A stretch of DNA of 61,081 bases, filler included, from Nemertoderma westbladi (Eukaryota; Animalia; Xenacoelomorpha), in NCBI GenBank assembly GCA_032718475.1. It is 3 parts of 3 records of this genome, joined end to end, with 100 filler letters (N's around TTAATTAATTAA, not from the genome) between each part and the next. Parts side by side here need not be neighbours in the genome. Positions count along the whole stretch, not along the records: positions 1 to 28,567 come from JAUCBJ010000671.1; positions 28,668 to 51,237 come from JAUCBJ010008000.1; 1 more part is not named here. One strand, 5' to 3'. The notes under the pieces are model-generated. The model was not told the DNA's origin. It did not search any database and saw only the letters and a program-made list of their open reading frames with translations. The position numbers and the translations under genes are program-made. Of the stretch, positions 7,501-44,174 are shown in pieces. Within the stretch, counting starts at the first letter, position 1. The number at the start of each line of letters is the position of its first letter.

Positions 7501-10500
7501 AGACAGACAACCATACTTAAATATACACATCCCCTGTCTCCAATTTCCACTCAAACTCTTCTACTTTTATCGTCAGCTCGCCTTCCCAATTTCCAAACAA
7601 ACCTCATCTTCTCTTTAAAATGCCACACAAACCTCTTGTATTTTTATTGTTAGCTCCTCTTTCTCGACTTCCCATTCCATCTCTCGGAACTTATGTTGTT
7701 CGGATTCTTCCACCATTTGTTTAACTGCATCGTTTTCCAGATCAAATTCACATCTATGTCATAAGAAATGTAATAAAATTATTGAACAATATCCCAGTTG
7801 TAGTCGGCAGCAGTTTCTTTTTGTGATTTCGATTTCCCCACAACTTTGATATTTCCTACGATTTATCTGTACAACTCTAATATCCTGTATTACCGGCGAA
7901 TTAATATCTCGTTTCAATTTTTAAATTAAAATTATCCAATAAGGGAAAGGGGCTGGTTACAATGACACGCTATTCTAACCAAAACAATAAACTAAAGTCA
8001 ATAGAACAGTTTACAATCTTGTATTTAAGAGTAATCAGCTGATATTTACCACGATTTTTCCATGGAGAGGGATGAATTGTGATTGCATCAATAGTCAGCC
8101 ACACCTGCCCTACTGATGCTACTACTTTCCTGAATTTTGAATAATTCCAGGCCAACCTTTTGTGATGGAATTTCCATCGGTTCAAAGTAGCTGCAATGGG
8201 TTTAAAGTAAACGATTATTAACGCTAATTAATGTTAATTATCGATTGAGGAAAGGAATCAGGTTACAGTTGTTTATTGCAAAACAATAAACGAGAGTCAA
8301 GATTGCAGGTTCATGTTTTTCGTTGTCAGATATCGACGAATCGTTAACAACAGCTGCTGGGGTATAAAGAATGATAGATTGATATCCGGGTAGATTTTTT
8401 TCTGGATTACCATTTGTTCCAGATCCTGAAGTTCTAGAACATTTAATTTAAATAAGTCAAATCAAAATACGAGGTAAGACTTTATCTAGTAAGTAACTTT
8501 CGGAAAGATTGGAGTCCTAACTCCTGACCTAACTGATCCTAACTACCAACCTGACTGCTGACTGCTGACTGGTTATATAAATTATCCCTACCGGGCACTT
8601 GATTCGTCCATTGAAGTTGACGATTCCAACACGGCTCTTGTGATTGGTGGGTTGGATCGATCGTGATTTGAGATTTCTTTGTTTAATCGATTGGCGGTTA
8701 TGATTGGTTGATTTGTACGACTTCTCATGTGTGAGTAAGGTAGATTCCCTACATCGACGCGCGTAGAGAAATCCTCCTAAACGTTAGCGGATATATGTGA
8801 GGTGTGTTACGGATAGCGGTACTGCAAACATATACTCTCTATTGGTAAAGCAAACAGATACTCTCAAACACTAGACATTGGTACAGCAAACAGATACTCT
8901 CAAACACTATAGATATTGGTAAAGCAAACAGTTACTCTCAAACACTAGACATTGGTACAGCAAACAGATACTCTCAAACACTATAGATATTGGTAAAGCA
9001 AACAGATACTCTCAAACACTAGACATTGGTACATCAAACAGGTACTCACAAACACTAGACATTGGTACATCAAACAGTTTCTCTCAAACACTAGACATTG
9101 GTACAGCAAACAGATACTCTCAAACACTATAGATATTGGTAAAGCAAACAGATACTCTCAAACACTATAGATATTGGTAAAGCAAACAGATACTCTCAAA
9201 CACTATAGATATTGGTAAACCAAACAGATACTCTCAAACACTAGACATTGGTACAGCAAACAGATACTCTCAAACACTATAGATATTGGTAAAGCAAACA
9301 GATTCTCTCAAACACTATAGATATTGGTACAGCAAACAGATACTCTCAAACACTATAGATATTGGTAAAGCAAACAGATACTCTCAAACACTAGACATTG
9401 GTACAGCAAACATATACTCTCAAACACTATAGATATTGGTACATCAAACAGATACTCAGAAAAACTAGACATTGGTACAGCAAACAGACACTCACAAAAA
9501 CTACACATTGGTACAGCAAACAGACACTCACAAAAACTACACATTGGTACAGCAAACAGATACTCAGAAAAACTAGACATTGGTACAGCAAACAGATACT
9601 CTCAAACACTAGACATTGGTACAGCAAACAGATACTCTCAAACACTATAGATATTGGTAAAGCAAACAGATTCTCTCAAACACTATAGATATTGGTACAG
9701 CAAACAGATACTCTCAAACACTATAGATATTGGTAAAGCAAACAGATTCTCTCAAACACTATAGATATTGGTAAAGCAAACAGATTCTCTCAAACACTAT
9801 AGATATTGGTACAGCAAACAGATACTCTCAAACACTATAGATATTGGTAAAGCAAACAGATACTCTCAAACACTATAGATATTGGTAAAGCAAACAGATA
9901 CTCTCAAACACTAGACATTGGTACAGCAAACAGATACTCTCAAACACTATAGATATTGGTACAGCAAACAGATACTCTCAAACACTATAGATATTGGTAC
10001 AGCAAACAGATACTCTCAAACACTATAGATATTGGTACAGCAAACAGATACTCTCAAACACTAGACATTGGTACAGCAAACAGATACTCTCAAACACTAT
10101 AGATATTGGTACAGCAAACAGATACTCTCAAACACTATAGATATTGGTACAGCAAACAGATACTCTCAAACACTATAGATATTGGTACAGCAAACAGATA
10201 CTCTCAAACACTATAGATATTGGTAAAGCAAACAGATACTCTCAAACACTAGACATTGGTACAGCAAACAGATACTCTCAAACACTATAGATATTGGTAC
10301 AGCAAACAGATACTCTCAAACACTATAGATATTGGTAAAGCAAACAGATTCTCTCAAACACTATAGATATTGGTACAGCAAACAGATACTCTCAAACACT
10401 ATAGATATTGGTAAAGCAAACAGATTCTCTCAAACACTATAGATATTGGTAAAGCAAACAGATACTCTCAAACACTATAGATATTGGTAAAGCAAACAGA

Positions 10501-13500
10501 TTCTCTCAAACACTATAGATATTGGTACAGCAAACAGATACTCTCAAACACTATAGATATTGGTAAAGCAAACAGATACTCTCAAACACTAGACATTGGT
10601 ACAGCAAACATATACTCTCAAACACTATAGATATTGGTACATCAAACAGATACTCAGAAAAACTAGACATTGGTACAGCAAACAGACACTCACAAAAACT
10701 ACACATTGGTACAGCAAACAGACACTCACAAAAACTACACATTGGTACAGCAAACAGATACTCAGAAAAACTAGACATTGGTACAGCAAACAGATACTCT
10801 CAAACACTAGACATTGGTACAGCAAACAGATACTCTCAAACACTACACTGAAAAAAGTAACTACATCTCGTTTGAAAAAGTGCCACTATCAATTATTAGT
10901 GGCATTAATTAATTTTTAAAGTTGCGATTTTATTAAACTGCAATTTTTTTCGAAATATGAAATTATTTATTTTTCCAAATTACAAAAACCCATTTTGTTA
11001 AATTTAATTAAATGTACTTCAAGAATATACCAGGTTATGGAAATTACTAAATATATTAAAGTTCCACTTTTTTAAATTTCTGTAAAAAGGTGCGCTTTTA
11101 AACAATTTATTGTTGTGTTGTAAAGTGCTACTTTAAAACAAAAAATTAAAACGTGTCCTTTTCTGTAAAAAGTTGCGATTTTAAACAATTTATTGTTATG
11201 TGTTGTAAAGTGCTACTTTAAAACAAAAATTTAAAAAGTACCCTAATCAGCATACTAATACACACATACAAAAATATGTATGTTGTGCAATCTAAATTTT
11301 GGGTGCAGTATTGCAAGGGTGAGGGTGTTGTGGGGGGGGGGGGGGGGGGTGGTTGGTCACGTCGTATTCATGTATATTGGTAGGTAAAAGTAGGCCTATC
11401 ATATCTCCTGCATCCTATCCACAGCCTGATAGCTGCACAGCATGCAGTTCTCAGAGTACCGGTACTGCTGGACTGGAGTTTACTGATGAACAGCATAACT
11501 GCCAAGTGTGCTCCTGGTGTGCTGTGCTTTGCAGATTTGTGCTAGTGCGTGTAGTGCTAACTAAACTAATCTAACTGCCTTTCTTAAAAAAGTGTTAAAA
11601 CAGTAAAAAAAAACATTACCGGGACGCGGTACATACCTCCACCACTCCACCGGTACGGTAGCCTACATCAGTACCTACATACAATGTCGCGGTGTTGCGG
11701 TAAAGGCGATAATCTAAGTGCAGAGTTTAGTTTCTGCCCACACTCTGGGGAGGAACAGAAAAAAAACACTGCTTGTCAAAGTTGCGGGAAACAGCTAGCA
11801 CAGTAGCAGCTAGATCCTGTATGGGTTAGTTGCCCATTTTGCCCAGTGCGTCCACATACCAACATGGGGATGGGTACTGGTACCGGTACATCTGGATGTG
11901 ATACCGGTGGTCCTACAGCTACCTGTACCGGCGGTGCTGCAAGTGCTAGTTGTCATCGAACACCACGATCTCAATTAGATACGAAAGTCGAAAATGGAAT
12001 CACGTATTATATTCCACCTCTACGCGAATCGTCTTCCGGAAATAAGCAACCGAGAGTCCCAGTAATTCAACTGGAAATAACCGCACAAGATGTAGCCAAG
12101 GATACTCATGGATTTCGTCGAGCCGTTCGTCAATTTCTATCTGACTTCGAAAGTCGGAATATTTGCGATATTTATCAAATGGCGGAATCAGTATGTTCTG
12201 TGTATCCGGAGATGCAGATTAAACACCACCGCCTTCACGATAAAACTGCATTTTTCCGTCATAAGTTATCCGTACACAAGGCGAACAAGTCTTACCGGCA
12301 CAGGGGTGCTGCAGCCGATAGGCCTAAGGATACCACCGTTGATCCATCCAAGGCCTACAACAAGGGCGATGACAATGTAAGTGTTACTACCGGTACCGAT
12401 ACTTCGGTAAAATCGACTGCTGTGGCGGATCAAGTGTTGAGTAAGGCTGCAACTAAGAGATTTACTGGGTGCAATGCAAACGAATGAAAGTGAACGTGTT
12501 GACGGCTAAGAAAAAATTTAAAAAACCAAGAAGGAAATAGGTTCTTGTAGACCTACAGGAGGATCTGCGGAGTTCAGATGATCCCGAATCGGATAATTCC
12601 GATTCAACAACCGCTTCCAGTTCGAGCCTCGAGTCAGTGTCTATTTCGGAGTCAGATTTAGGAGATACTGACAATGTTCCTGGAGGAGGAGGCGGCGCTC
12701 TCATTTGGGCGAGAATGAGAAAAAAGGATATACCCTGGCCTGGTAAGGTTTCTGTTGCACCAGATGGAACTGACCCTCCTCCGGAAAAAAATGGGGGGTT
12801 GTCTATGGGTATACTTTTTTGGGACGGGGAATGCTTGTTGGGTGAGGGAAGTCCAGGAAGAATATATATTCCCTTACAAAGAATTCCGCGCGGAATTTAG
12901 CTACCCTAAAGGCCAAGTGCCCCACTCATTCGCAGCCGCTCTAGAAAATATTGAGAAGGAGTACCTTAGTCGAGAGTACGGTACTGAGACTGTCAACGTA
13001 ACTGAGTCATAAGTTGTAAATAGGACACTGAAATCGTTAGAACTGATACGGCAGAGAATAATAATTTAGTTATGTTATGGCGAATGGCGTTTTGTCAGTT
13101 ACAAACTAATGAACTGAATTTTGTTGCAAATATGGATAGTTTAGGCTGAACTGTGGTGTTTTATTTTGTGTAGAATGTAGATTGGTCATGCTTGGTCATG
13201 ACATTGTTCATGTTATCTTCATATAGATGGAAGATAGGTGCACAGTAGCAGGATTGCATCTGTGCGTTAAGAACTAAACTGAACTTATTATATTTTAGGC
13301 ATTTTATTATATCGATTACATGGATTAGTTATTTTGTTTTTATATTGCCTTATTATTGTAGTACTGTCAACTAACATGTACGACATTGTAATATTCTGTA
13401 TGCAGGCGGTATGGCCTTACTGACCAGTCCAGTATAGGCCAGTCCGTGCATGTAATATATTTGTCGTACATGTTCGTTGCGTTATACGTTATATGTCATG

Positions 13501-16500
13501 TGTTATACCAGTATATATAACTATCTGTTTATGATGTAACCGAAGCAGCGGCTGGCATAGCAACTGTAAAACTGTTCTGTGTTAAGTATTTGATCAATCT
13601 CGTGTATATTAATAGCGATAATTATAATAATTGATTCTCGTGTTGTTTATTATTCTTTATTAAACTTTTATGGGGATAAACTTTGGGGTCAATATTCATC
13701 ATACCTTAAAAATATGACTTCATTTAATTTAAAGAAATTTACACTCATTATTAAAAATAATATAAGTTCCCCTTAGATAAGCAAACCAAACTAGTTCTTC
13801 TTTACAGTGAAAAGTACCTCTTTTTCACATACTAAGTAATATAAATTGATCTTAAATATTGCGGGGAGTGGTATTTTTAAATAGAAAGAAGCACTTTAAT
13901 TGGCAATCAAGTACCACTTTATATTTTAATAAGTGCTGCTTAATCTAAAAAGTGCATGTTTTAAATGATTAATCGTACAAATAAAGTACCTATTACAAAT
14001 AAAAGTACCTCTTTTTCACATAATAAGAAATATAAATGCATCTTAAATATACGGGGAGTGGCATTTTTAAATAGAAAGTAGCACTTTAATTGGAAATAAA
14101 GTACCACTTTATATTTTAATAAGTGCTGCTTAATCTAAAAAGTGCATGTTTTAAATGATTATCCCACAAGTAAAGTACATATTACATAGAAAAAGATGAG
14201 CTTTTTTCCTACTAATGAATATAAAAACGTAAATAATATTCAGAAAAGTGTCGTTTTGTAAACAGAAAATCAGTACTAACATTATCAAAAAAGTACCACT
14301 TTTTAGAGTAATTAAAAGTGATCTTTTCTGCTCCTTGAAAAAGTGCCATTTTTATATTGTAATAAAAAGTGACTCTTTTTGCTACTTGAAAAAGTGCCGG
14401 TTTTTCAAAAAAGCGTATCTCGTTTGAGTACTCAAAACCAGATGCACTTTTTTGGAAAATCGGCACTTTTTTATGAAAAAAGTACAACTTCGTTTTTTCA
14501 GTGTAGACATTGGTACAGCAAACAGATACTCTCAAACACTAGACATTGGTACAGCAAACAGATACTCTCAAACACTATAGACATTGGTACAGCAAACAGA
14601 TACTCTCAAACACTATAGATATTGGTAAAGCAAACAGATACTCTCAAACACTATAGATATTGGTAAACCAAACAGATACTCTCAAACACTATAGACATTG
14701 GTAAAGCAAACAGATACTCTCAAACACTAGACATTGGTACAGCAAACAGATACTCTCAAACACTATAGATATTGGTAAAGCAAACAGATACTCTCAAACA
14801 CTAGACATTGGTACAGCAAACAGATACTCTCAAACACTATAGACATTGGTACAGCAAACAGATACTCTCAAACACTATAGATATTGGTAAAGCAAACAGA
14901 TACTCTCAAACACTAGACATTGGTACAGCAAACAGATACTCTAAAACACTAGACATTGGTACAGCAAACAGATACTCTCAAACACTAGACATTGGTACAG
15001 CAAACAGATACTCTCAAACACTATAGATATTGGTAAAGCAAACAGATTCTCTCAAACACTATAGACATTGGTACAGCAAACAGATACTCTCAAACACTAT
15101 AGATATTGGTAAAGCAAACAGATACTCTCAAACACTATAGACATTGGTACAGCAAACAGATACTCTCAAACACTATAGATATTGGTACATCAAACAGATA
15201 CTCTCAAACACTAGACATTGGTACAGCAAACAGATACTCTCAAACACTATAGATATTGGTAAAGCAAACAGATACTCTCAAACACTAGACATTGGTACAG
15301 CAAACAGATACTCTCAAACACTAGACATTGGTACAGCAAACAGATACTCTCAAACACTATAGATATTGGTAAAGCAAACAGATACTCTCAAACACTAGAC
15401 ATTGGTACAGCAAACAGATACTCTAAAACACTAGACATTGGTACAGCAAACAGATACTCTCAAACACTAGACATTGGTACAGCAAACAGATACTCTCAAA
15501 CACTATAGATATTGGTAAAGCAAACAGATACTCTCAAACACTATAGATATTGGTAAACCAAACAGATACTCTCAAACACTTAGACATTGGTACAGCAAAC
15601 AGATACTCTAAAACACTAGACATTGGTACAGCAAACAGATACTCTCAAACACTAGACATTGGTACAGCAAACAGATACTCTCAAACACTAGACATTGGTA
15701 CAGCAAACAGATACTCTCAAACACTAGACATTGGTACAGCAAACAGATACTCTCAAACACTATAGATATTGGTACAGCAAACAGATACTCTCAAACACTA
15801 TAGATATTGGTAAAGCAAACAGATACTCTCAAACACTATAGATATTGGTAAAGCAAACAGATACTCTCAAACACTAGACATTGGTACAGCAAACAGATAC
15901 TCTCAAACACTATAGATATTGGTACAGCAAACAGATACTCTCAAACACTATAGATATTGGTAAAGCAAACAGATACTCTCAAACACTAGACATTGGTACA
16001 GCAAACATATACTCTCAAACACTATATAGATATGGTAAAGCAAACAGATTCTCTCAAACACTAGACATTGGTACAGCAAACATATACTCTCAAACACTAT
16101 AGATATTGGTACATCAAACAGATACTCAGAAAAACTAGACATTGGTACAGCAAACAGACACTCACAAAAACTACACATTGGTACAGCAAACAGACACTCA
16201 CAAAAACTACACATTGGTACAGCAAACAGATACTCAGAAAAACTAGACATTGGTACAGCAAACAGATACTCAGAAAAACTAGACATTGGTACAGCAAACA
16301 GACACTCACAAAAACTACACATTGGTACAGCAAACAGATACTCAGAAAAACTAGACATTGGTACAGCAAACAGACACTCACAAAAACTACACATTGGTAC
16401 AGCAAACAGACACTCACAAAAACTACACATTGGTGCAGCAAACAGACACTCACAAAAACTACACATTGGTACAGCAAACAGACACTCACAAAAACTACAC

Positions 16501-19500
16501 ATTGGTACAGCAAACAGATACTCACATGAACTACGGACAGCGGTACAGCGTATCGATCGTCGATAGACCGTTGATGCGACTCGGGAATCAGTTCATTACC
16601 GTTATCTACTCTAGTAGTCCCTGTGGACTCGAAAGGTTTTACGTGAGCTAACAACTTGCTCCCCTTAGATCGGGCGCTCCAAACTTCCTCTCTGTTTGAT
16701 TCTGAAAGAGTATAAAGTATATAGGAGAACAGTGTCGGATGAGTAAACATTTATTGTGAGGGATAATCAAAATAATACTATTTAGAGAGAAGCTTATTTA
16801 GGTAGTCGAGAGACGAGACCCTAATAAAGAAATTAATTTTTAGTTGTTTTCCCCGCTAACTCAATACCGTTGACTTCATGTTCTCTTAGGGGCTCTGTAT
16901 TTTGGAGCCAAAACATGCTATCATGGTAAATATCAACAATGTGTTTATGTTATCATCGAACATTCCAAAAATAATCAAAGATATGGAATATATACTTTAT
17001 AATATGATATTATTGTCAAGATTGTTTTATGTAAAAAATTTGTACATAAAACAATCATTTGTAAGGCAATGAATAAAAAAGTTCATGTGATGTTTTTGGC
17101 CTATAACATGCGGAAATGTAACACCCCAAAATTAAACACTAATAATCTATGTTTAATTAGGAAGTAATAAATTTGTACATATTTACAAAAAATACATTAT
17201 ATAATACATAATTATTATATATATTGATAGTGTATGTACCGTGGTGTAGTTAGTATCAGTGACGTCACTACATACCTTTAACGAGCTCCTGGGATTTCAA
17301 TCTTTCTATATCCATGTTGCTTCTCTTTAGTTTGGCTGCCAAATCTTCATTGACGAGATTCACTTCATCCAGTCGTTGTTTCAACAGATCCCTTTCGGAT
17401 TCGGCAGCGGTCGCCACTTTCCTTAGAGCCGTCGACTCCTCACAAGCGGCCGTTATCTGTTGTCGCATAGGCTCGATCATTCTAGAACGTTCCCGCAACC
17501 AATCCTGCTCCTTAGCGGCGAACTGAAGTTTCTCTTCGCGCAGGACTTTGAGATCAAACCCTTGAGCCTCGACTTTGAGACGGAGTTTCCTCGTTTCCTC
17601 TTGTAATCCGACGAGCAATTCCGCGGACTCGTTCACCGGAACCGGGGGTGGGCTCCCGACGAAGTCGACGACGCTCGGAGTGCTGCCGGAGGAGGCCGAT
17701 CGAACGATCCTCTCTAACTCCGCCGACAACTCACTGATTCTCTTCTCCAATTCTCCGACTAATCGGTCCGATTCGAGTTTAACCGATTTCATCGCGGCTT
17801 TTAAATCCTCGTTTTCGTCGATTAGCGAGGACATCTGCAACGAGAGCTGCAGAGTGTCATCCATACCTCCAACAGACGACAATCGCACCGATTTCGATTT
17901 CAGTCCCTCCACCGATTCCTCCAAATCCGCTATCACCTTCCTCATATTTTCGCATTCCCTTTCGGATTCATCCAAGCTCGATTGTTTTCGGTTGCTAAGT
18001 AACGTATGCTCTCGGACCTGGTGTTGAAGACGCGCGTTTTCTCGATGTACAGAACTCCATTGTTCTCGTGAAGGTGGGTATAACTGCGTGGGTGTGTCCT
18101 CTAACAAACCCAGCCCAGTCTGGTTTGGATAGACCTCATCTTCCGCTGATGTTCTAGAATTAAACAATTATAAGCAGTTAAAACTTAAATAAAATTATAC
18201 CAATACCAATTTACCAATACGAAGTACATTTACATACTACAGTAACCAATTCAGTAACCAATACAGTAACCAATATAATGTATTCGAAAATATGTGCATT
18301 ACACTCTGAAGCTGAACCCATACCATTGACGACTAGGAACGTAAAATAAACATTTTTTCATACAATTGAAGGCCAAACATATACGTCACTGAACACACTC
18401 ACTTAAATTTGAAACACATGTGATACACATGGTAGTTTAGTTTTAATTTTGGATATCTTTATTAATATCATTAAACACAATTATCATGAATGCGTTATAC
18501 ATTAAAAACACACTTGGACATCCCCCCCCCCCTTCCCCATCCTGTTGTTACTCAATGCCGGTTGAGTTTGTAACCTAACATACCTGTAGCGTCTCCTCTG
18601 GTAGAATAAACCCTTGTAACAACACAATGACATATTAATAATATTTTCAAATATAATGGAAAGATGGTTTGAGGCAACTGGTTGGTTGTTATCTAAACAC
18701 TCATGTAAAACAATAATTTTATTTCACAAAATATCCTGATTTATTTATAACTTTTTATATAAGGTTTTGGGAATAATCATTAGACTTTTTCCTCCAACCA
18801 ACTTTTTTTCCTAAAAATAGTGGATTGTTACCTTGAAATTAGTATTTATTTTCTTAATGACGACTGTACGACGAAATTAATTTCTTGTTATTTTTTTTAC
18901 ATTTTGACTTTGACTCGGTAGTGTGACCGCGGCCTAACTGGTGCAATATCGACGGAGACACTTTTTTCAAACGCTTATAGCTAAAGAATGAAGACGCAAA
19001 TATAAATTCTGGCTCACCCAGTATGGGGAGGGGAGGGCAGATAAGGAGGGAGATGAACCAATCTCTATTTCGGGTGTAAACGTTACGCCAACAGCCGACA
19101 ACCAACAGCAGACAACCGACAGAAGACAACCGACAGAAGAAAACCGATAGCAGACAACCGACTGCAGACAACCGACAGCAGACACCAGACAGCAGACAAC
19201 CAACAGCAGACAACCGACAGCAGACAATCGACAACAGACAACCGACAGAGAGACAACCAACAGCAGACAACCGACAGCAGACAACCGATAGCAGTTCATT
19301 CGTTATGGTTAGATAAATTATATGGGCCATGGGGCCACAATTGTTCAAGATTATATTTTATACAGCACAATAGTTCAGTAGAAACCTGTAAGCCTACAAT
19401 ATATTAAAATAATCGATTTGATTTTTGTTTTAAAAAGGGATAAGGTAATATTAGTCATTCCAGCTGCCAGCAGTGAGGTTTTATTGTCGTGTCGGCCTAC

Positions 19501-22500
19501 CGTAGTTAAAGACAGAAACTCAAAAGACTTTATTTAGTCTGTGGGTTTCATGCATGAAACCAAACTATTTTTGACATCAGAAATTTTCAAAAAACAAGCA
19601 ATTGGGCTCTTTTTGGTGATCAAAAACCTAAAAACCTAGTTTTGGGCTTTTTTAAAATTTTAGGTTTTTGACAAAAATCGACAAAAACCTAGATTTACAA
19701 AAACCTACTTTGCCAGCCCTGGGTGAACAGTAGATTTTGTGAAATAAAATTACCTTTTACATTAAAAAACTAATATCGTAAACCTTTATGATCTCAAGAA
19801 AGAATGTAATTAAATTATACGGTCAGCGAGTAAAAAGTCTTAATTAGTTATTAAAGCAACGGCTATAGATTCTTGTTAAAAATGTATGTAAAGTCACGCT
19901 GTGTGAAGTGGGAGTTTTATAGGGGGCGGCTTCTACATACAATAATGTAAGGGCCTTCCTTTGGTTATAATAGTTCGTTAGGATCTAAGGTTTAGGCATG
20001 TTCAACATGCCATACCAATTGACAAGGAAGGGTTTTTGATAGAAGTTAAAGATGTTCACCACGGCACACAAAATGAGTCACCTTATTTGGTATTGAAGTA
20101 GCGCTGGGTTTGGGGAATGTATGTGATTCCATTAAAAGCGGAATGAGGGCCGTTTAAATTCAATAGACGGAGGTATTCAATGATTCAATGACTCATTTAC
20201 GGACCTGCCTTAATACTTATAGTCTTGGGGATTAAATATTTAATTTAATTTGTAATAACGGCCGTTCGATAGGAGATTAGATGAGACGCTCTATGACTAT
20301 GAACAATAAAATGTCGGCCCAAATATTTCCTCCTCAGTAAAACCGAGTAAAAGAGATAATTGTATAAATTACATATCATAATTAATAATATCAACTGGTA
20401 TTTATAATTCACTCACCTCCTTTGATTATCGACAATATTATTAGCCTCATCATTTACACCTGTGTGGGTGGATTCCTATAAATGTCGCAGAAATAATTTA
20501 ATGTTTAATATATATAAATATATAACAATCTATTTACATATTACATATAAACACTTTTCAGCGTGTATGACCCTTGCTTGTATATTTATGTAAACGTCCA
20601 ACGTCCCTCGCGTGATACTTTTCACGCATTGATGTAAATAATTATACTATTGCCACACGGTTGTAAACACGCCTACACCTTCATTATACAGGTACGTGTA
20701 GGTATAGGCGTAGGTGTAGGTATAGGTTTAGGCGTAGGTGTAGGTATAGGCGTAGGTGTAGGTTTAGCGTCATAACACACCTTGAAATTCGTACTTTTAT
20801 TCGAAACTTGAAACATTACTTAATATATGTAAAGGTACTACTGAAGCTAATACTAAACGAAGTATTCTAGAAAGTGATTTTATAACAAGGTGTTCTAGAA
20901 AGTGATTTTATAACAAGGTGTTCTAGAAAGTGATTTTATAACGAGATGTTCTAGAAAGTGATTTTATAACGAAGTATTCTAGAAAGTGATTTTATAACGA
21001 AGTATTCTAGAAAGTGATTTTATAACAAGGTGTTCTAGAAAGTGATTTTATAACGAGATATTCTAGAAAGTGATTTTATAACGAGATGTTCTAGAAACAG
21101 ATTACCTGGTTGTTTGCCGGAGAGTTATTTGTGATTTCTGCGTCTCCACCAGTTGTATCGGCGCCACAAGGGGGAGATTCACTCCTCGCAACTTCGTTGC
21201 CAGAAACCAGGTTGAGAGGCGCGTCTTTAGGCATCGACCCTAGTCTGCGGAGACGACGTCTATTTGGTTTCGAACCCGTTTTCTCAACATTATTTTTGGG
21301 GGAACCAAAAGAGCGATCCTCAACCATTAATACATGTTGTGTCTACGGATCAACAATTATAATCACTATAATAATTGAAAAATCTTAAACAAATAATATT
21401 TCTTAAAAGTTTTATATAATAAATTGATAACAAGTTCATGCCTACGACACGATATGATGCTAGGCCTACTCCACGTGTTACGCAAAGTCCTTACAAACAT
21501 TGAAGGATGTTGAACTTTTGAGCCTTTGTAAATATAATTGATACATTAACATAGCACCCCATGTATATATTGCTGTACAATACAAACATGTGCGCAGTCG
21601 AGAACAAATATTACTGAATAAGAGAGTAAACAGGGCGACTGGGTCGTGCGACTTCTTCACAATATGGGGCAATCTAAATAGACAGTCGTGATTGTCAGCC
21701 ACTTTGTGGTCTTTCATGAACACACAAGCAGATAAAATGTCAATAGTGTGAAAATGTGAAATGGTGGTATCGGAAACGCAATAAATCGTTAAGGAGTTTA
21801 ACTCTGTTAATCACACACCCTTCAACAAATGGCTTTATACAATATTATTTGATTCAGAGATAAGCAGCAAACTAACAAACTTCACCAGCCTAGCCTACCA
21901 ACCAACCCCGGCTATAATCACACCAGCTAACCTCACAATCTGTCGATATTTCTGTCTCCACACAGATAACTTCGGTCAGGGCAGCGGTGTTAGTCGATAC
22001 GGTGGAGTCATTGACGGAGCCTTTGGAAAAAGTAAATAAAAATGTTTATTATTATATTTAATCAATAATATAAATATGGCAGAAATGCGGGGGCGGGGCA
22101 CCCAGCACAATACGGTAGGCTGGCTTCCTGGCTTAGATCTGAGACATGTGTGATGGACTCTACCAACGAAACCACAAGATGTGTAGGGTAGGTCCTATCG
22201 CGATAACCTGACACATCATAAATAAAATATATATAAAAAATAATCGATATCGATATGACCTTGTCCCAAAGGACCTGCCAGTTAAGTGAGAGGGATGTGG
22301 ATGGAGGCCCATTCTCCACATCCCACATTCTGATTTACAAGTCTGGCGGTCTGGTGACCAACCGCCAGCCAATCTGATGCCGCCGGGGACCTATCAATAG
22401 CTGACGCAGGGATAATGGATATCGCGTTAATCAACGGCGCTGCATCACCTTGTATGTAAAAACCATCCGCTCTACCAAGTGAAACATCGAGGAGAGGGGC

Positions 22501-24768: not shown

Positions 24769-25084
24769 CGGCTAATTAAGTTATTTTGCGATTAAACATA
24801 ATTTATAACAATTTTAAAAATTATCAGAAACTATTTATAACGTTATTAATATTACTCACTGCATATAATATGCAGATGCACTGGCACTGTAGTTTTATAA
24901 TTACAGAATGCTAATTCGCCTTCCAACCTTAATTAATAGCCATCCCATTTCCAACTTTGATATGAATAGTCTATCCAAACTGACATTGGAAGAGAAAGAT
25001 AAATATAATCCTAAATCGATCCTAATTATGGCTATCGATTGGGGTCACTACAAAACAAAGACCAAAGACCCAAATAATAAAGAC

Positions 25085-26368: not shown

Positions 26369-27357
26369 CAGGGCCGGATTAAAGTGATCAGGGCAGGGCT
26401 GTGAGAAATAAAAAGGGCCACTTCCGACGCCAGAAAAATAACATAAAAACTATATAATATGTACTGTAATTTATTACCCAGGTCAGCAAGTTAATGTTAC
26501 TGACTAATACTAAACTAAAATAACTAAAACTAAAATTAAACTAAAAATACTAACTTTAAGACCTTTGATGGCATTGTCCGTCCAAGGGGGGGGGGTCTAT
26601 AATGATATGGAGTGGTCAATATTATTGGATTTGGATGGTTTCAATACAATCAAGGCTGCTTTCACCTTTTCAGGGCCTCTAGATAGTAATTTTAAAATTT
26701 TGACCAAAATTGTTAACATTCTTAAGAAATCGGCATTTACGATCTATGTTTATCTCTGTATCTATATATGTCAAATATCAATTTGCTCAAAATGTCAAAT
26801 GTCAAATTGTCCTTTATTCTTAACCAAGTTATAAACTTATTAGTCCCACCTAACTTTTCAGTATAAATTGTCCATTTGGACCAATTTAATTTATATTAAT
26901 TACTCCTAACAATAAACGATAATATGAGCACAGATTTAGGGCTTCCTTCCGTGCGTTTATGAGGCTGTGCATAGCAGAATTAAATTAATGGAACTATAGT
27001 CACTCCTCCTAACGGCCGACAGAAGAAATTTAGATCTCTGTAAGTGAGTAGAATTTCTAAACCTCTCATAGACTATACCATTGTAAACGCGAGCGAAACG
27101 AGAGGAATTTTTTTAAAAACCTGTTTAAAACTTTGTGATATAAAATGGAAGTTGGTGCCGAGTTGGGCCTTTCTTTTCAGGATTACCTTCAGTTTGTACT
27201 GTATTGCTCAGCCATTCATCGGTTATTTTCGAATTTGGGGCCCCTTTCAAGACGGGGCCCCTGGACGGGCCTAGTAAGTTTTTAAGTCTCGCTTGGGTCG
27301 TGGGCTGCAGGCAGCCCACACAGCCACCCCCCCCCCCCCTTAATCCAGTCTAGTCTG
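26369..27357. mobile_element. hAT-like MITE, ~990 bp
   Basis: Starts CAGGGCCGGATTAA and ends TTAATCCAGTCTAGTCTG (imperfect TIR). Identical 8-bp flanks TGTCTATA at 26361-26368 and 27358-27365. Confidence 0.75.
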
Positions 27358-28567
27358 TGTCTATATGTATATTCTAGCTATCCATGCTAAACCACTACCA
27401 CCACACCGGTCACAGTCACACACAATGGTCCCGTCAAAATCCGTCGTAAAATGAAACGCTAATAACAAAACACGACAGCAAAATGTAAAAATACCAAGTG
27501 CCTTCAGTAGTATTTGGAAGGAATACTAATTTCACAAATTGTTTTAAAACAATTCAAATTTACTTATGCATCTACAGTTACTCGAATGTAATAATATGAA
27601 ATTCAATTCTACATTACACATCATCTTACATTCATTTTATTTACCGAAGGTTGATCACGAATACAATAAAAATTAGCTTAAAGTATAACTCTTTAATATT
27701 TATTAATAATTTATTTTTTTAAAATCAACTTAACACATATTGACAGTAACCAAAAGTTTGATTACAAAGGCTTTATGTAACAGGCCCGAGACAGCCAATG
27801 TATGTTTTGCTACAATCGTACGATATCATCTCAATATCAACTGTATTTTCACTTTAATTCAAATAAGAACCAACAATCTGCATGTGTAAACTTGGTAATG
27901 TATTGAATCACTGTATAAATTAGCAGTTGTAATCTATTCGATTACATACTGCATTATCTTACAATCTGGTAATCATCGATTACTCACAACATTCCAAACA
28001 TTAACAAATAATTAATGTATAATAAAAATAGATTCATCTATTGTCATATCGTCCATGCTGCATGTGGTGATTCCCGCCGTCTCGCGCCACCAACTATTTT
28101 TTTTTCACCCGGACCTATTATAAATGGTTTGTTAGATTGTTCCACGCACCAATTAATTTATCCCACCGCCCCCACGCCAACTATTTTTTCATACAGCCTT
28201 ACATTATCATTGCCAGACAGCCTATCATTATTAGTTAGTGGGATATAAACACTACAAGTAGTATAGAAATAACTAGCTAACTAATAGAATTGGATGGGTA
28301 GCACACATTTGGGATGATACAAGTGTTGTCTGTTGTGTAGTGTAGATAGATTTGTATTATTAATGAAATGTATACTCTGAGCATAGTGAAGTGAGAACAA
28401 CGTCACACTGTAACATTCCACAAGAATCGTTAAAAGTATAAAATATCAATTACAAAATTGAATCAGCTGGCAAACATAAAGTGGGGGTGGTTATAATCAG
28501 CTGTCTCCCTGTCTCTGTCAGGGAATCACTAATCACATACAGCTCACTATATTTGTTATCTACTTGT

Positions 28568-28667
28568 NNNNNNNNNNNNNNNNNNNNNNNNNNNNNNNNN
28601 NNNNNNNNNNNTTAATTAATTAANNNNNNNNNNNNNNNNNNNNNNNNNNNNNNNNNNNNNNNNNNNN
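28568..28667. other. Artificial assembly linker (44N + TTAATTAATTAA + 44N)
   Basis: Exactly 100 nt with a six-frame-stop core; an identical linker is at 51238. Confidence 0.97.
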
Positions 28668-28696
28668 CTAGATATTTTTTTTATTTTGTTCTCAAG

Positions 28697-31600
28697 GGTT
28701 TGATGATTTCGATGTTGATACAGTTCCTATTGTAATAGCCAATAGTAGTGACTCGAACTCCCTGGTCGCCATGGCGAAAAAGTCTCGTATAATAATCAAC
28801 TGCGTGGGTCCATTCCGTCACCACGGTGAACCGGTTGTGGAGGCATGCGTGGACTACCACTGTCATTACGTTGATATTAGTGGTGAACCCGAGTTTATGG
28901 AGAGAATGGAATGGAAGTACAATAGGTTGGTATTTATAGAGCTCGGAAGTACAATAGGTTGGTATTTATAGAGCTCGGAAGTACAATAGGTTGGTATTTA
29001 TAGAGCTCGAGAAGTACAATAGGTTGGTATTTATAAAGCTCGGAAGTACAATAGGTTGGTATTTATAGAGCTCGGAAGTACAATAGGTTGGTATTTATAG
29101 AGCTCGGAAGTACAATAGGTTGGTATTTATAGAGCTCGGAAGTACAATAGGTTGGTATTTATAGAGCTCGGAAGTACAATAGGTTGGTATTTATAGAGCT
29201 CGGAAGTACAATAGGTTGGTATTTATAGAGCTCGGAAGTACAATAGGTTGGTATTTATAGAGCTCGGAAGTACAATAGGTTGGTATTTATAGAGCTCGGA
29301 AGTACAATAGGTTGGTATTTATAGAGCTCGGAAGTACAATAGGTTGGTATTTATAGAGCTCGGAAGTACAATAGGTTGGTATTTATAAAGCTCGGAAGTA
29401 CAATAGGTTGGTATTTATAGAGCTCGGAAGTACAATAGGTTGGTATTTATAGAGCTCGGAAGTACAATAGGTTGGTATTTATAGAGCTCGGAAGTACAAT
29501 AGGTTGGTATTTATAGAGCTCGGAAGTACAATAGGTTGGTATTTATAGAGCTCGGAAGTACAATAGGTTGGTATTTATAGAGCTCGGAAGTACAATAGGT
29601 TGGTATTTATAGAGCTCGGAAGTACAATAGGTTGGTATTTATAGAGCTCGGAAGTACAATAGGTTGGTATTTATAGAGCTCGGAAGTACAATAGGTTGGT
29701 ATTTATAGAGCTCGGAAGTACAATAGGTTGGTATTTATAGAGCTCGGAAGTACAATAGGTTGGTATTTATAGAGCTCGGAAGTACAATAGGTTGGTATTT
29801 ATAGAGCTCGGAAGTACAATAGGTTGGTATTTATAGAGCTCGGAAGTACAATAGGTTGGTATTTATAGAGCTCGGAAGTACAATAGGTTGGTATTTATAG
29901 AGCTCGGAAGTACAATAGGTTGGTATTTATAGAGCTCGGAAGTACAATAGGTTGGTATTTATAGAGCTCGGAAGTACAATAGGTTGGTATTTATAGAGCT
30001 CGGAAGTACAATAGGTTGGTATTTATAGAGCTCGGAAGTACAATAGGTTGGTATTTATAGAGCTCGGAAGTACAATAGGTTGGTATTTATAGAGCTCGGA
30101 AGTACAATAGGTTGGTATTTATAGAGCTCGGAAGTACAATAGGTTGGTATTTATAGAGCTCGGAAGTACAATAGGTTGGTATTTATAGAGCTCGGAAGTA
30201 CAATAGGTTGGTATTTATAGAGCTCGGAAGTACAATAGGTTGGTATTTATAGAGCTCGGAAGTACAATAGGTTGGTATTTATAGAGCTCGGAAGTACAAT
30301 AGGTTGGTATTTATAGAGCTCGGAAGTACAATAGGTTGGTATTTATAGAGCTCGGAAGTACAATAGGTTGGTATTTATAGAGCTCGGAAGTACAATAGGT
30401 TGGTATTTATAGAGCTCGGAAGTACAATAGGTTGGTATTTATAGAGCTCGGAAGTACAATAGGTTGGTATTTATAGAGCTCGGAAGTACAATAGGTTGGT
30501 ATTTATAGAGCTCGGAAGTACAATAGGTTGGTATTTATAGAGCTCGGAAGTACAATAGGTTGGTATTTATAGAGCTCGGAAGTACAATAGGTTGGTATTT
30601 ATAGAGCTCGGAAGTACAATAGGTTGGTATTTATAGAGCTCGGAAGTACAATAGGTTGGTATTTATAGAGCTCGGAAGTACAATAGGTTGGTATTTATAG
30701 AGCTCGAATGAAGTACAATAGGTTGGTATTTATAGAGCTCGGAAGTACAATAGGTTGGTATTTATAGAGCTCGGAAGTACAATAGGTTGGTATTTATAGA
30801 GCTCGAATGAAGTACAATAGGTTGGTATTTATAGAGCTCGGAAGTACAATAGGTTGGTATTTATAGAGCTCGGAAGTACAATAGGTTGGTATTTATAGAG
30901 CTCGGAAGTACAATAGGTTGGTATTTATAGAGCTCGGAAGTACAATAGGTTGGTATTTATAGAGCTCGGAAGTACAATAGGTTGGTATTTATAGAGCTCG
31001 GAAGTACAATAGGTTGGTATTTATAGAGCTCGGAAGTACAATAGGTTGGTATTTATAGAGCTCGGAAGTACAATAGGTTGGTATTTATAGAGCTCGGAAG
31101 TACAATAGGTTGGTATTTATAGAGCTCGGAAGTACAATAGGTTGGTATTTATAGAGCTCGGAAGTACAATAGGTTGGTATTTATAGAGCTCGGAAGTACA
31201 ATAGGTTGGTATTTATAGAGCTCGGAAGTACAATAGGTTGGTATTTATAGAGCTCGGAAGTACAATAGGTTGGTATTTATAGAGCTCGGAAGTACAATAG
31301 GTTGGTATTTATAGAGCTCGGAAGTACAATAGGTTGGTATTTATAGAGCTCGGAAGTACAATAGGTTGGTATTTATAGAGCTCGGAAGTACAATAGGTTG
31401 GTATTTATAGAGCTCGGAAGTACAATAGGTTGGTATTTATAGAGCTCGGAAGTACAATAGGTTGGTATTTATAGAGCTCGGAAGTACAATAGGTTGGTAT
31501 TTATAGAGCTCGGAAGTACAATAGGTTGGTATTTATAGAGCTCGGAAGTACAATAGGTTGGTATTTATAGAGCTCGGAAGTACAATAGGTTGGTATTTAT

Positions 31601-34600
31601 AGAGCTCGGAAGTACAATAGGTTGGTATTTATAGAGCTCGGAAGTACAATAGGTTGGTATTTATAGAGCTCGGAAGTACAATAGGTTGGTATTTATAGAG
31701 CTCGGAAGTACAATAGGTTGGTATTTATAGAGCTCGGAAGTACAATAGGTTGGTATTTATAGAGCTCGGAAGTACAATAGGTTGGTATTTATAGAGCTCG
31801 GAAGTACAATAGGTTGGTATTTATAGAGCTCGGAAGTACAATAGGTTGGTATTTATAGAGCTCGGAAGTACAATAGGTTGGTATTTATAGAGCTCGGAAG
31901 TACAATAGGTTGGTATTTATAGAGCTCGGAAGTACAATAGGTTGGTATTTATAGAGCTCGAATGGAAGTACAATAGGTTGGTATTTATAGAGCTCGGAAG
32001 TACAATAGGTTGGTATTTATAGAGCTCGGAAGTACAATAGGTTGGTATTTATAGAGCTCGGAAGTACAATAGGTTGGTATTTATAGAGCTCGGAAGTACA
32101 ATAGGTTGGTATTTATAGAGCTCGGAAGTACAATAGGTTGGTATTTATAGAGCTCGGAAGTACAATAGGTTGGTATTTATAGAGCTCGGAAGTACAATAG
32201 GTTGGTATTTATAGAGCTCGGAAGTACAATAGGTTGGTATTTATAGAGCTCGGAAGTACAATAGGTTGGTATTTATAGAGCTCGGAAGTACAATAGGTTG
32301 GTATTTATAGAGCTCGGAAGTACAATAGGTTGGTATTTATAGAGCTCGGAAGTACAATAGGTTGGTATTTATAGAGCTCGGAAGTACAATAGGTTGGTAT
32401 TTATAGAGCTCGGAAGTACAATAGGTTGGTATTTATAGAGCTCGGAAGTACAATAGGTTGGTATTTATAGAGCTCGGAAGTACAATAGGTTGGTATTTAT
32501 AGAGCTCGGAAGTACAATAGGTTGGTATTTATAGAGCTCGGAAGTACAATAGGTTGGTATTTATAGAGCTCGGAAGTACAATAGGTTGGTATTTATAGAG
32601 CTCGGAAGTACAATAGGTTGGTATTTATAGAGCTCGGAAGTACAATAGGTTGGTATTTATAGAGCTCGGAAGTACAATAGGTTGGTATTTATAGAGCTCG
32701 GAAGTACAACGGGTTGGTATTTATAGAGCTCGGAAGTACAATGGGTTGGTATTTATAGAGCTCGGAAGTACAATAGGATGGTATTTATAGAGCTCGGAAG
32801 TACAATAGGTTGGTATTTATAGAGCTCGGAAGTACAATAGGTTGGTATTTATAGAGCTCGAATGGAAGTACATTATGTTGGTATTTATAGAGCTCGGAAG
32901 TACAATAGGTTGGTATTTATAGAGCTCGCAAGTACAATAGGTTGGTATTTATAGAGCTCGGAAGTACAATAGGTTGGTATTTATAGAGCTCAAATGGAAG
33001 TACATTATGTTGGTATTTATAGAGCTCGGAAGTACAATAGGTTGGTATTTATAGAGCTCGCAAGTACAATAGGTTGGTATTTATAGAGCTCGGAAGTACA
33101 ATAGGTTGGTATTTATAAAGCTCGGAAGTACAATAGGTTGGTATTTATAGAGCTCGGAAGTACAATAGGTTGGTATTTATAGAGCTCGGAAGTACAATAG
33201 GTTGGTATTTATAGAGCTCGAATGGAAGTACATTATGTTGGTATTTATAGAGCTCGGAAGTACAATAGGTTGGTATTTATAGAGCTCGGAAGTACAATAG
33301 GTTGGTATTTATAGAGCTCGGAAGTACAATAGGTTGGTATTTATAGAGCTCGGAAGTACAATAGGTTGGTATTTATAGAGCTCGAATGGAAGTACATTAT
33401 GTTGGTATTTATAGAGCTCGGAAGTACAATAGGTTGGTATTTATAGAGCTCGGAAGTACAATAGGTTGGTATTTATAGAGCTCGGAAGTACAATAGGTTG
33501 GTATTTATAGAGCTCGGAAGTACAATAGGTTGGTATTTATAGAGCTCGGAAGTACAATAGGTTGGTATTTATAAAGCTCGGAAGTACAATAGGTTGGTAT
33601 TTATAGAGCTCGGAAGTACAATAGGTTGGTATTTATAGAGCTCGGAAGTACAATAGGTTGGTATTTATAGAGCTCGGAAGTACAATAGGTTGGTATTTAT
33701 AAAGCTCGGAAGTACAATAGGTTGGTATTTATAGAGCTCGGAAGTACAATAGGTTGGTATTTATAAAGCTCGGAAGTACAATAGGTTGGTATTTATAAAG
33801 CTCGGAAGTACAATAGGTTGGTATTTATAGAGCTCGGAAGTACAATAGGTTGGTATTTATAAAGCTCGGAAGTACAATAGGTTGGTATTTATAGAGCTCG
33901 GAAAGTACAATAGGTTGGTATTTATAGAGCTCGGAAGTACAATAGGTTGGTATTTATAGAGCTCGGAAGTACAATAGGTTGGTATTTATAGAGCTCGGAA
34001 GTACAATAGGTTGGTCATTTATATAGCTCGGAAGTACATTATGTTGGTATTTATAGAGCTCGGAAGTACAATAGGTTGGTATTTATAGAGCTCGGAAGTA
34101 CAATAGGTTGGTATTTATAAAGCTCGGAAGTACAATAGGTTGGTATTTATAGAGCTCGGAAGTACAATAGGTTGGTATTTATAGAGCTCGGAAGTACAAT
34201 AGGTTGGTATTTATAAAGCTCGGAAGTACAATAGGTTGGTATTTATAGAGCTCGGAAGTACAATAGGTTGGTATTTATAGAGCTCGGAAGTACAATAGGT
34301 TGGTATTTATAGAGCTCGGAAGTACAATAGGTTGGTATTTATAGAGCTCGGAAGTACAATAGGTTGGTATTTAAGAGCTCGGAAGTACAATGGGTTGGTA
34401 TTTATAGAGCTCGGAAGTACAATAGGTTGGTATTTATAGAGCTCGGAAGTACAATGGGTTGGTATTTATAGAGCTCGGAAGTACAATAGGTTGGTATTTA
34501 TAGAGCTCGGAAGTACAATGGGTTGGTATTTATAGAGCTCGGAAGTACAATGGGTTGGTATTTATAGAGCTCGGAAGTACAATAGGATGGTATTTATAGA

Positions 34601-37600
34601 GCTCGGAAGTACAATGGGTTGGTATTTATAGAGCTCGGAAGTACAATGGGTTGGTATTTATAGAGCTCGGAAGTACAATGGGTTGGTATTTATAGAGCTC
34701 GGAAGTACAATGGGTTGGTATTTATAGAGCTCGGAAGTACAATAGGTTGGTATTTATAGAGCTCGGAAGTACAATAGGTTGGTATTTATAGAGCTCGGAA
34801 GTACAATAGGTTGGTATTTATAGAGCTCGGAAGTACAATGGGTTGGTATTTATAGAGCTCGGAAGTACAATAGGTTGGTATTTATAGAGCTCGAAAGTAC
34901 AATGGGTTGGTATTTATAGAGCTCGGAAGTACAATGGGTTGGTATTTATAGAGCTCGGAAGTACAATGGGTTGGTATTTATAGAGCTCGGAAGTACAATA
35001 GGTTGGTATTTATAGAGCTCGAATGGAAGTACAATAGGTTGGTATTTATAGAGCTCGGAAGTACAATAGGTTGGTATTTATAGAGCTCGGAAGTACAATG
35101 GGTTGGTATTTATAGAGCTCGGAAGTACAATAGGTTGGTATTTATAGAGCTCGAATGGAAGTACAATAGGTTGGTATTTATAGAGCTCGAATGGAAGTAC
35201 AATAGGTTGGTATTTATAGAGCTCGGAAGTACAATAGGTTGGTATTTATATAGCTCGGAAGTACAATAGGTTGTATGCTGTTCCTCCACTTTTTGTTTAT
35301 AAGAATGTAATCCAGCTGTGCTCTTGCTACATTTAGGGTATTGAAAGGTCCACAGCTTATTCATTCCCCTTACTCTTTTCGAATGTGGTGTTTGTTGGTA
35401 TCAATTTACATTCTTCCATTAGGTCAGGTCTAAGAGTATAATCACCGACTTCTGTCCGAACTGGTGTTATACTATAGGTGTAGCCCTTGGTGTCACATCC
35501 AACAATGACTTTAACATTGTGTTTCGGAATGTCCTTTATAAGTCCAGTCAGTTCTTCATAAAACTTGACTGCTTGTTCTGGCTCTGAGGCATTGGTTGGA
35601 CTGTAGCAACATATAACTGTTGCCTTAGGATTTCCATCAAATGTTGCAATCATAACCCTAAAATTTATAGTCGATTCTGTTTAGGGTCTGAAGTGCTAAT
35701 GGGCTATATCTTCTGCATCGTATGAACTCAAAAGAGAAGAATGGAAGTTCAATAGGTTTTTGTTCTTTTTGTGGAATTTCTGGAGCTACTTAAATAAATA
35801 TGTCAGTGAAATTGAATAAGGAAATAATATAATATTCTAGAATAGGGATGTCCCGGAATTCCGTTCCGGCCGGAATTCCGGCGGTTTTTGCCCGATTCCG
35901 GTTCCAGCCGGAATTGCCGGAATGGGGTCAATTCCGGCCGGAATTTTACCGGAATTGCTAAGTTCCTATCTAGTTTGATAGTTGCACATTTTGCACGTTG
36001 ATATGTAACATATTTCCAAAAACATTCCACCTGGTAATCAAACTAAAATGGTCCCACCATCTGTAACACCACTTAAGTAGTATTCATATACAATTCACAA
36101 TAACCATCATAATTTACATTAACTAATGAAATGCATCAATATGCCCGTGCCCCACTGGTCAGAATGTCAAAATGAATGCCTCATTGCTCCATAGGTAACA
36201 CAAGTCATGAGTCATTTGATAAAAAATATAAGATGCATCTCACATTTACTGCATATTTATACCCAAAGTAACCAATCACAGGCCTCTTGCCGGATATAAC
36301 ATAACACATGAGTCATGTGTCAAAAGATGGAACATGGGACATAATCACTTTCGTCTCCTTGGTCGTAACTTACGATTTACCAGTGGAGACGCTCCCATTG
36401 AAACCAACGTGTTCCATAATTTATTCTGACTAAGACTTTCTAAGACTTACCAGTGGAGCACGGGCCTTAAATAGTGGTTTTTTCAATTTGCTTTTTACAA
36501 TTTGTTTATAAAATGGCGTTTTTAGATTGATCTTACACTATTTTACATTGATTTTATATTATTTTATATTAATTATTAAATAATATGATAATATTATGAT
36601 GGGTATTATCTCGTCCAACGTAACATATAGAATGACCCCTAAAGATTTGCAGCTTATTTCCATGCGGGTCCTTTATGTTACTTGGTTACAAATACAATAT
36701 TACACAAATACAATTACTACTCTAACTTAAAACTAATATAAAACGTTATTACAATACGTACAGGTCTTGCGTCGTAGGTGCTTCATAATATAGTAGTTTT
36801 GTTTCTATTTACAGCAAATCCATTTCTTACCATAAATCTATTTATTCCCAGCAATAATTAAACTGTAACATGTGATGTACTATTGGCCTCTTTTATTGTT
36901 TTGGTTCAAATAACATGTCACTGTAACATGCTCCTTTCCCTTAAAGACACCAGGATATTGCACCAAAGGACCTACCTAATGACGCGAAACCATAGGTTTT
37001 TGTTTAACGTAGGTTTTTAGGAGTCTAAATGCTAATAACCTAACTTTTGGCCAAAGTTATAGATTTTAGAAAAATTTTTATTGAATTCCCTGTCGTTCAA
37101 TGCCGAAGTACCATCCCGTCCCCTTAACGACCCAGGCCATTCTCCACTCCACCCACTTTAATTCCCCCCAAGGTTCTGATTCCTTTCATTATCAAACTTA
37201 GCTGTTCTGTAGAAATTAAAAAAAATCATTTGTTTCACACAAAATTGTAAAGTTTCATGGGTCATTTAGTGTATTTCACTAATTATAGAAAATTCCGGTT
37301 CCGGCCGGAATTCCGGCCGGAATATTCCGGCATGTTGAATTCCGGTTCCGGTTCCGGCCGGAATCAAAATATCGATTCCGGGACATCCCTATTCTAGAAC
37401 ATTGCTCTACTTTTTTTTATTGTTGGTATTCTTATTATTATTATTATTTTTCCGTTTTTTTTTAGTCGCGCTAGTGATAATGGCGTTTATATCGTCTCCG
37501 CCTGCGGATTCGACTCGATTCCCGCTGAGATGGGAGTGGTTCATCTCAAGAAGGCATTCAGTGATGCTGACAGCACTCTCACTGGAGTAGAGAGTTACAT

Positions 37601-44151: not shown

Positions 44152-44174
44152 CACATGCATATATGAAACACGTT

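What the first reader, a model, noticed from the sequence alone, without database searches (positions are those of the whole stretch)
7535..35273. Recurrent pattern: intron growth seeded at 5' splice sites
Seen: within 30 kb two large arrays (28913, 16549) and one decayed short array (7535-7660) each span a donor site, and a fourth (20858-21097) starts ~8 nt after a donor. The units are unrelated to each other and gene-specific. Inference: this genome may have a mutational process that preferentially amplifies exon-intron junctions, for example one linked to R-loops, Pol II pausing or U1 binding. An alternative is a selective filter, since duplications across a donor leave the first copy functional.
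Basis: inference. Interest (0 to 1): 0.8.

Follow-up and report, generated by a model that had tools for sequence, protein, structure and literature searches.

The report
Mirage repeats inflate three introns
In two genes of an unidentified animal, three exon ends with their splice signal are copied head-to-tail into the next intron (about 200, 110 and 3 times), swelling two introns about tenfold; this repeat type is known from lancelets and humans, and it likely collects at exon edges because it is tolerated and hard to delete there, not because the splice signal drives the copying.

Summary
Three arrays span 5' splice donors: 28913 (32-mer, about 198 copies, SCCPDH; donor fixed by homology), 16549 (36/38-mer, about 110 copies, really running to 8802 and split by a CACTG transposon) and 7535 (about 3 decayed copies). 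The last two donors come from a stop-free 12-exon model. The 20856 array only abuts its donor.

A junction copy was found at 3 of 15 donors, against 3.1% of non-exonic positions (P=0.011, post hoc), and at 0 of 18 acceptors (donor versus acceptor P=0.08). So there is an excess, but donor specificity is not shown.

A U1, pausing or R-loop drive is not supported: 95 of 107 scored units of one array have lost the GT, and the duplicated donors are not stronger than the others. These are 'mirage' minisatellites, known from lancelets and from human F7, CBS and 6-16. The scan has already noted the pattern many times in this genome, at acceptors too, and in two other genomes.

One new clue: the SCCPDH array ends at a LINE fragment followed by a second copy of the exon end, so an insertion may have seeded it.

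The parts
28697..28925 (+). SCCPDH (saccharopine dehydrogenase-like) exon whose 3' end seeds array 1; donor GT at 28926
   Evidence: Pfam PF03435; homologue alignment across the junction
28905..35273 (+). Array 1: about 198 copies of a 32-nt unit (some 36-nt variants with 4 more exon bases), exon end plus donor plus about 15-nt filler; 191 of 193 anchored units keep GT
35274..35732 (-). Broken LINE-like endonuclease-region fragment directly behind the last unit
   Evidence: three-frame translation with stops; weak tblastn match (E 0.075) to the LINE fragment at 46262-46915; no Pfam hit; family label is recalled from the motifs
35733..35758 (+). Second copy of the SCCPDH exon end plus GTT (25 of 28 columns identical), followed by non-array intron
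37466..37631 (+). Next SCCPDH exon (further exons 40738-41188 and 41936-42183)
16526..16701 (-). Exon of the coiled-coil gene whose end seeds array 2; donor GTGAGT at 16525
   Evidence: gene model
14504..16549 (-). Array 2, exon-proximal half (about 55 units of 36/38 nt); 7 of the first 11 downstream copies keep GT and are in frame
10846..14503 (.). CACTG...CAGTG DNA transposon inserted into array 2, TA on both sides, with subterminal repeats and a PWWP-like ORF
   Evidence: superfamily label (CACTA/CMC type) recalled
8802..10845 (-). Array 2, distal half (about 54 units); the far-edge copy 8825-8802 keeps 18 of 24 nt of the exon end and lies 25 nt from the acceptor
8592..8776 (-). Next exon of the coiled-coil gene, found from the reading-phase requirement
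7633..7753 (-). Exon whose end seeds array 3; donor GTTTGT at 7632
7535..7661 (-). Array 3: about 3 decayed copies of roughly 45 nt spanning donor 7632
20856..21103 (-). Array 4: 28-nt unit, 8.6 copies, starts 2-8 nt inside the intron; no exon sequence in the unit
21106..21342 (-). Exon upstream of array 4; a contig of the RNA-like run X4 leaves the genome sequence at this donor
   Evidence: (record 30)

Best explanation
Three introns begin with head-to-tail copies of their own exon end and splice donor; these likely start as ordinary short local duplications, likely grow by ordinary minisatellite turnover, and likely pile up at exon edges because the first donor is still used and an exon-anchored array is hard to delete. 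Shown: the units derive from their own junctions; only the first SCCPDH donor gives a full reading frame; in array 2 the edge copies stay exon-like while the interior has been replaced by donor-less variants. Inferred: (1) seeding by a 30-50 nt duplication, at SCCPDH probably together with a LINE-fragment insertion that duplicated the exon end; (2) growth by slippage or unequal exchange, in a window that is 27.5% tandem repeat; (3) tolerance through use of the most upstream donor, as shown experimentally for human F7; (4) excess over background through survival: a deletion can erase a mid-intron array from many start points, but can erase a junction array only from a window about one unit wide.
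For: Junction origin and excess. First donor required. 95 of 107 scored units of array 2 lack GT and the far-edge copy keeps the exon sequence, which matches the concerted evolution with excluded boundaries described for lancelet mirages (PMC3087553 passages). Duplicated donors match the donor consensus at 6, 6 and 7 of 9 positions, against 6-8 for all 15. Upstream-donor selection: PMC1557585 passages. Array 4 sits at an exon edge with no splice signal in its unit. Repeat share of the window.
Against: The survival step is my inference and was not supported by the one test I could run: 3 of 8 non-spanning, non-TE intronic arrays lie in the outer tenths of their introns (P=0.20). It predicts acceptor arrays too, and this window has 0 of 18. 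The LINE fragment with a duplicated exon end fits breakage or insertion aimed at the junction equally well. No RNA was read across the three spanned donors.
Confidence: 0.55

Rival explanations
1. Seeding bias: breaks or retroelement-assisted insertions occur preferentially at exon-intron junctions in this genome, and their staggered repair duplicates the exon end, giving the first two units; growth afterwards is ordinary.
For: 20% of donors vs 3.1% of control positions, which tolerance alone cannot give. At SCCPDH a LINE fragment lies between the array and a second exon-end copy that matches the exon further upstream than any array unit does. The filler shares 10 nt with an abundant LINE family at the codon homologous to the fragment's break (0.03% of shuffles at that site). 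Unchecked scan notes list many more junction arrays in this genome.
Against: The insertion anatomy is seen at 1 of 3 arrays. The 10-nt match is post hoc: 46% of shuffled fillers hit somewhere in the window, and the real filler has 3 such hits. No genome was available for a count.
Confidence: 0.25
2. The splice signal itself drives amplification (U1 binding, Pol II pausing or R-loops at the 5' splice site).
For: All three spanned junctions here are donors. Array 1 keeps GT in 191 of 193 anchored units and is strongly G-skewed on the sense strand (about +0.5); its donor ranks 1 of 15 for G skew.
Against: Array 2 expanded mainly units without GT (95 of 107). The other two duplicated donors rank 4 and 13 of 15 for G skew, and none is a stronger consensus match. 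Donor vs acceptor P=0.08. Array 4 has no donor in its unit.
Confidence: 0.08
3. Chance: in a window this rich in repeats, three arrays overlap donors by accident and were picked out afterwards.
For: Small numbers; the window and the score threshold were chosen knowing the cases; the ungapped test found only 2 of 15. An unchecked note on an octopod genome reports such arrays as rarer than chance there.
Against: P=0.011 against a control that keeps TE repeats and array edges. After setting aside arrays in high-copy elements, both kilobase-scale locus-derived arrays are at donors. Many independent loci are noted in the same genome (unchecked).
Confidence: 0.07
4. The introns were created by the duplications (Rogers-type intron gain from an exonic AG|GT).
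For: Intron 16525-8777 is almost all array plus transposon; only 25 nt remain between the far-edge copy and the acceptor. The model is discussed for mirages.
Against: The part of each unit after GT does not resemble the start of the next exon at any of the three sites, and no array reaches the acceptor (sequence; 0 of 18 acceptors).
Confidence: 0.04

Closest known systems
Lancelet 'mirage' minisatellites (Adh3, globins BflGb6 and BflGb9, troponin C, PGBD5). PMC3087553 and PMC3902484: matching passages read, supplements not opened; the original Adh3 paper not seen.
   Same: Tandem copies of a gene's own exon-intron boundary, 10-160 bp units, many but not all with splice signals, boundary units spared from homogenisation, several loci in one genome, mechanism stated to be unclear.
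   Different: The copy numbers in the passages read are 2-7, against about 110 and 200 here. Here the arrays dominate intron length, one has been hit by a transposon, and one adjoins a LINE fragment with a duplicated exon end.
Human donor-spanning minisatellites: F7 intron 7 (37 bp, 5-9 copies), 6-16 (25 pseudo-sites), CBS intron 13 (15-20), LMNB2, PDGF. PMC1557585: matching passages read.
   Same: First unit spans the donor and the donor is reiterated in the intron; the most upstream site is used, sometimes also the next two.
   Different: Scattered single loci with 5-25 copies; no claim of genome-wide enrichment in the passages read.
Variable internal tandem repeats at exon-intron boundaries of human segmental-duplication genes (PMC2812944: matching passages read)
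   Same: Minisatellites overlapping exon-intron boundaries that alter gene structure.
   Different: There many create new introns or are retained in alternative transcripts; here the features of intron gain were not found.

Membership tests
Mirage / junction-spanning minisatellite | Head-to-tail units that contain the host gene's own exon-intron boundary | tested here: met
   Arrays 1-3; not met for array 4
Mirage / junction-spanning minisatellite | Unit of minisatellite size (10-160 bp in the lancelet cases) | tested here: met
   32/36, 36/38 and about 45 nt
Mirage / junction-spanning minisatellite | Many but not all units keep the splice signal | tested here: met
   GT in 191 of 193 anchored units of array 1 and 12 of 107 scored units of array 2
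Mirage / junction-spanning minisatellite | Boundary units excluded from homogenisation | tested here: met
   Array 2: far-edge copy 18 of 24 nt identical to the exon end, interior units diverged
Mirage / junction-spanning minisatellite | Normal splicing at the authentic site | tested here: inconclusive
   Only the first SCCPDH donor gives an intact protein; no RNA contig was read across the three donors
Mirage / junction-spanning minisatellite | Length polymorphism or somatic instability | not testable with these tools
   Short-read contigs collapse the arrays; array 2 is present in a second sample but its length cannot be read
Intron gain by tandem duplication (Rogers model) | Duplicated unit is exonic on both sides of AG|GT and supplies the acceptor | tested here: not met
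   Post-GT parts do not match the next exons; arrays stop short of the acceptors
TE-borne or dispersed satellite | Unit present at high copy elsewhere in the genome | tested here: not met

The most novel reading that the evidence does not exclude
This animal has a mutational process that breaks or primes DNA at exon-intron junctions, with LINE cDNA captured at the break, so that exon ends are duplicated far above the intronic rate and junction satellites have become a main source of intron length genome-wide. The SCCPDH locus would preserve the seeding event: exon end, filler, array, LINE fragment, second exon end.
Probability: 0.2. Interest if true: 0.72.

Novelty: new member of a known kind. 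Interest (0 to 1): 0.36.

Why it matters
The origin of mirage repeats was called unclear in the lancelet paper. A genome where about a fifth of the sampled donors carry one, some with hundreds of copies, makes the question countable: seeding bias and survival bias predict different age profiles. The arrays also test first-donor selection against up to about 190 identical decoys, and show a route to intron growth other than transposon insertion (36% of modelled intron sequence here). The repeat type is not new and the scan has already recorded it many times in this genome, which limits what this window adds.

Tried and rejected
Genome-wide test: impossible, no genome is held. RNA: no RNA holder was listed. 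Run X4 is recorded as 'DNA?' but covers exons and high-copy repeats only and has contigs that leave the genome at splice sites, so I read it as RNA.

Two further candidate donor arrays were rejected. The 63-mer at 43356-44157 has an AG|GT in its first unit, but its bin depth is 371,500 in X1 and contigs join it to LINE-adjacent DNA at 46080, so it is a dispersed repeat. The 40-mer x3 at 50287-50405 has AG|GT in each unit on the minus strand, but X4 splices into 50237 from an exon not found in the window and shows no cover over it; lack of cover is not proof. Pfam found no meaningful family for 5 candidate exon translations.

A candidate microexon at 18612-18584 broke the reading phase and was dropped. 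The Sel1-repeat gene's donor was not fixed and was left out of the counts. Edge clustering of 8 non-spanning arrays was not significant. No inverted ends were found to delimit elements around the 19091, 25085, 37762 and 3017 arrays. No homologue for the coiled-coil gene.

Seven paper searches listed no genome-wide study of junction-spanning arrays. The library lacks most subscription journals, and no supplements were opened.

Full report
Setting. The window is animal DNA with no close relative among the listed hits: the intronless ASCC1 gene is at most 45% identical to the 120 hits shown of 266. TRF lists 44 rows; arrays cover 27.5% of the window.

Gene models. SCCPDH lies on the plus strand (exons 28697-28925, 37466-37631, 40738-41188, 41936-42183). 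Four homologues align without a gap across the 28925/37466 junction, and moving the donor to the 2nd, 3rd or 4th copy gives stops. A coiled-coil gene lies on the minus strand. Twelve hand-picked GT-AG exons chain into 865 residues without a stop, including exon 8776-8592, which I found from the phase that the neighbouring exons required. It has no homologue and only sub-threshold coiled-coil Pfam hits. Run X4 behaves as RNA in my reading: one contig leaves the genome at donor 21105 and another enters at acceptor 18153.

Array 1 (28905-35273). About 198 units of 32 nt, each exon end plus GT plus about 15 nt of filler; 147 of 192 counted units are one identical sequence, and 191 of 193 anchored units keep GT. 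Some 36-nt variants carry four more exon bases. The last unit runs into a broken LINE-like endonuclease fragment, followed at 35733-35758 by a second copy of the exon end (25 of 28 columns), which matches the exon further upstream than any unit does. The simplest reading is an insertion that duplicated the exon end before the array grew; this is inferred from one locus. The filler shares 10 nt with a very abundant LINE family at the codon homologous to the fragment's break. That match is rare at that site (0.03% of shuffles) but common somewhere in the window (46%), so it is only a lead.

Array 2 (16549-8802). Array plus element fill nearly all of a 7,749-nt intron. Only 12 of 107 scored units keep GT, 7 of them among the first 11 copies. 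The far-edge copy keeps 18 of 24 nt of the exon end and lies 25 nt from the acceptor. So the ancestral unit was exon end plus donor, and the variants that expanded mostly lack the donor. The first 11 copies are in frame and open. The array is low-depth and is present in a second sample.

Arrays 3 and 4. The decayed copies at 7535-7661 are real: the segment -29..+15 of donor 7632 aligns to the intron with score 45. The 28-mer at 20856-21103 starts 2-8 nt into the intron and contains no exon sequence.

Is it more than chance? With gapped alignment, a junction-crossing copy (score 34 or more) was found at 3 of 15 donors and 0 of 18 acceptors, against 3.1% of 3,000 non-exonic control positions (binomial P=0.011; donors vs acceptors Fisher P=0.083). 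An ungapped version found 2 of 15 donors and 0 of 17 acceptors at score 36 or more, against 1% of 400 controls. The window and the threshold were chosen knowing the cases, so these P values are optimistic. Many other arrays in the window are carried by high-copy elements. Two further candidates with AG|GT in their units, at 43356 and 50287, were rejected. Donor-spanning arrays make up 36% of modelled intron sequence.

Mechanism. Tolerance has experimental precedent: in human F7 the most upstream of several identical donors is used (PMC1557585, passages). Tolerance alone makes such copies neutral, not over-represented, so the excess needs either longer survival or biased seeding. I favour survival at the exon edge (0.55), because unit turnover looks ordinary and independent of the donor, and because array 4 sits at an edge without a splice signal. 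My one direct test of it was not significant (3 of 8, P=0.20), and the empty acceptor count does not help it. Biased seeding by breaks or LINE capture (0.25) has the SCCPDH anatomy in its favour. A drive by U1, pausing or R-loops (0.08) is weakened by GT loss in array 2 and by ordinary donor strength and G skew, although array 1 alone fits it.

Known systems. Tandem copies of exon-intron boundaries are named mirages in lancelets, occur at both kinds of boundary and are reported not to disturb splicing (PMC3087553 and PMC3902484, passages). Human cases are F7, 6-16, CBS, LMNB2 and PDGF, and boundary repeats in duplicated genes (PMC2812944, passages). Seven searches listed no genome-wide study; the library is incomplete and supplements were not opened. 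Unchecked scan notes describe many donor arrays and several acceptor arrays in this genome, and cases in two other genomes. I used them as leads only.

Verdict. New member of a known kind; interest 0.36.

Noticed in passing
window 43356-44157 and 46080-46918: The 63-nt repeat and the nearby LINE endonuclease-region fragment are extremely abundant (bin depth 350,000-570,000 in X1 against 2-25 for single-copy DNA), and contigs join the repeat directly to 46080: possibly one very high-copy LINE-derived element with a tandem tail.
   Followed up: partly
window 50122-50237 (-), with 51887-52894 and 55052-56383 (+): A deeply covered X4 contig splices into an acceptor at 50237 from an exon not found in the window. 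Intronless ASCC1 and malonyl-CoA decarboxylase genes on the other strand may be nested in that intron, or the exon may lie in the N gap at about 51258-51338.
   Followed up: partly
window 50287-50405 (-): Three low-copy 40-nt units each hold AG|GT, about 50 nt from that acceptor; this could be the donor of an unused alternative exon. X4 shows no cover.
   Followed up: partly
window 35831-37403: Element with 29-nt inverted ends and an 8-nt direct repeat at both sides (hAT-like MITE; label recalled) in the same SCCPDH intron.
   Followed up: no
window 10846-14503 and 1-1785: Two CACTG-type elements with related ends; the first carries a PWWP-like ORF at 12722-13009 (Pfam E 2.5e-5, just under the cut-off).
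   Followed up: no
window 38500-40342 and 58472-58622: The 17-nt array (100 copies) lies inside an element whose inverted copy at about 58.5 kb has the same flanks without the array: a filled and an empty version side by side.
   Followed up: no
window 8825-8777 (-): Three of the six differences between the far-edge copy and the exon end are synonymous third positions, and the five bases after the copy are the reverse complement of the donor's first five; possibly a small inversion that removed the last pseudo-donor.
   Followed up: no
window 5243-24771 (-): An 865+ residue coiled-coil gene with no homologue found; its first and last exons were not fixed.
   Followed up: partly
window 28568-28668 and about 51258-51338: Two N gaps, each holding a short six-frame-stop spacer: scaffold joins. 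The SCCPDH 5' exons may lie in or beyond the first.
   Followed up: no
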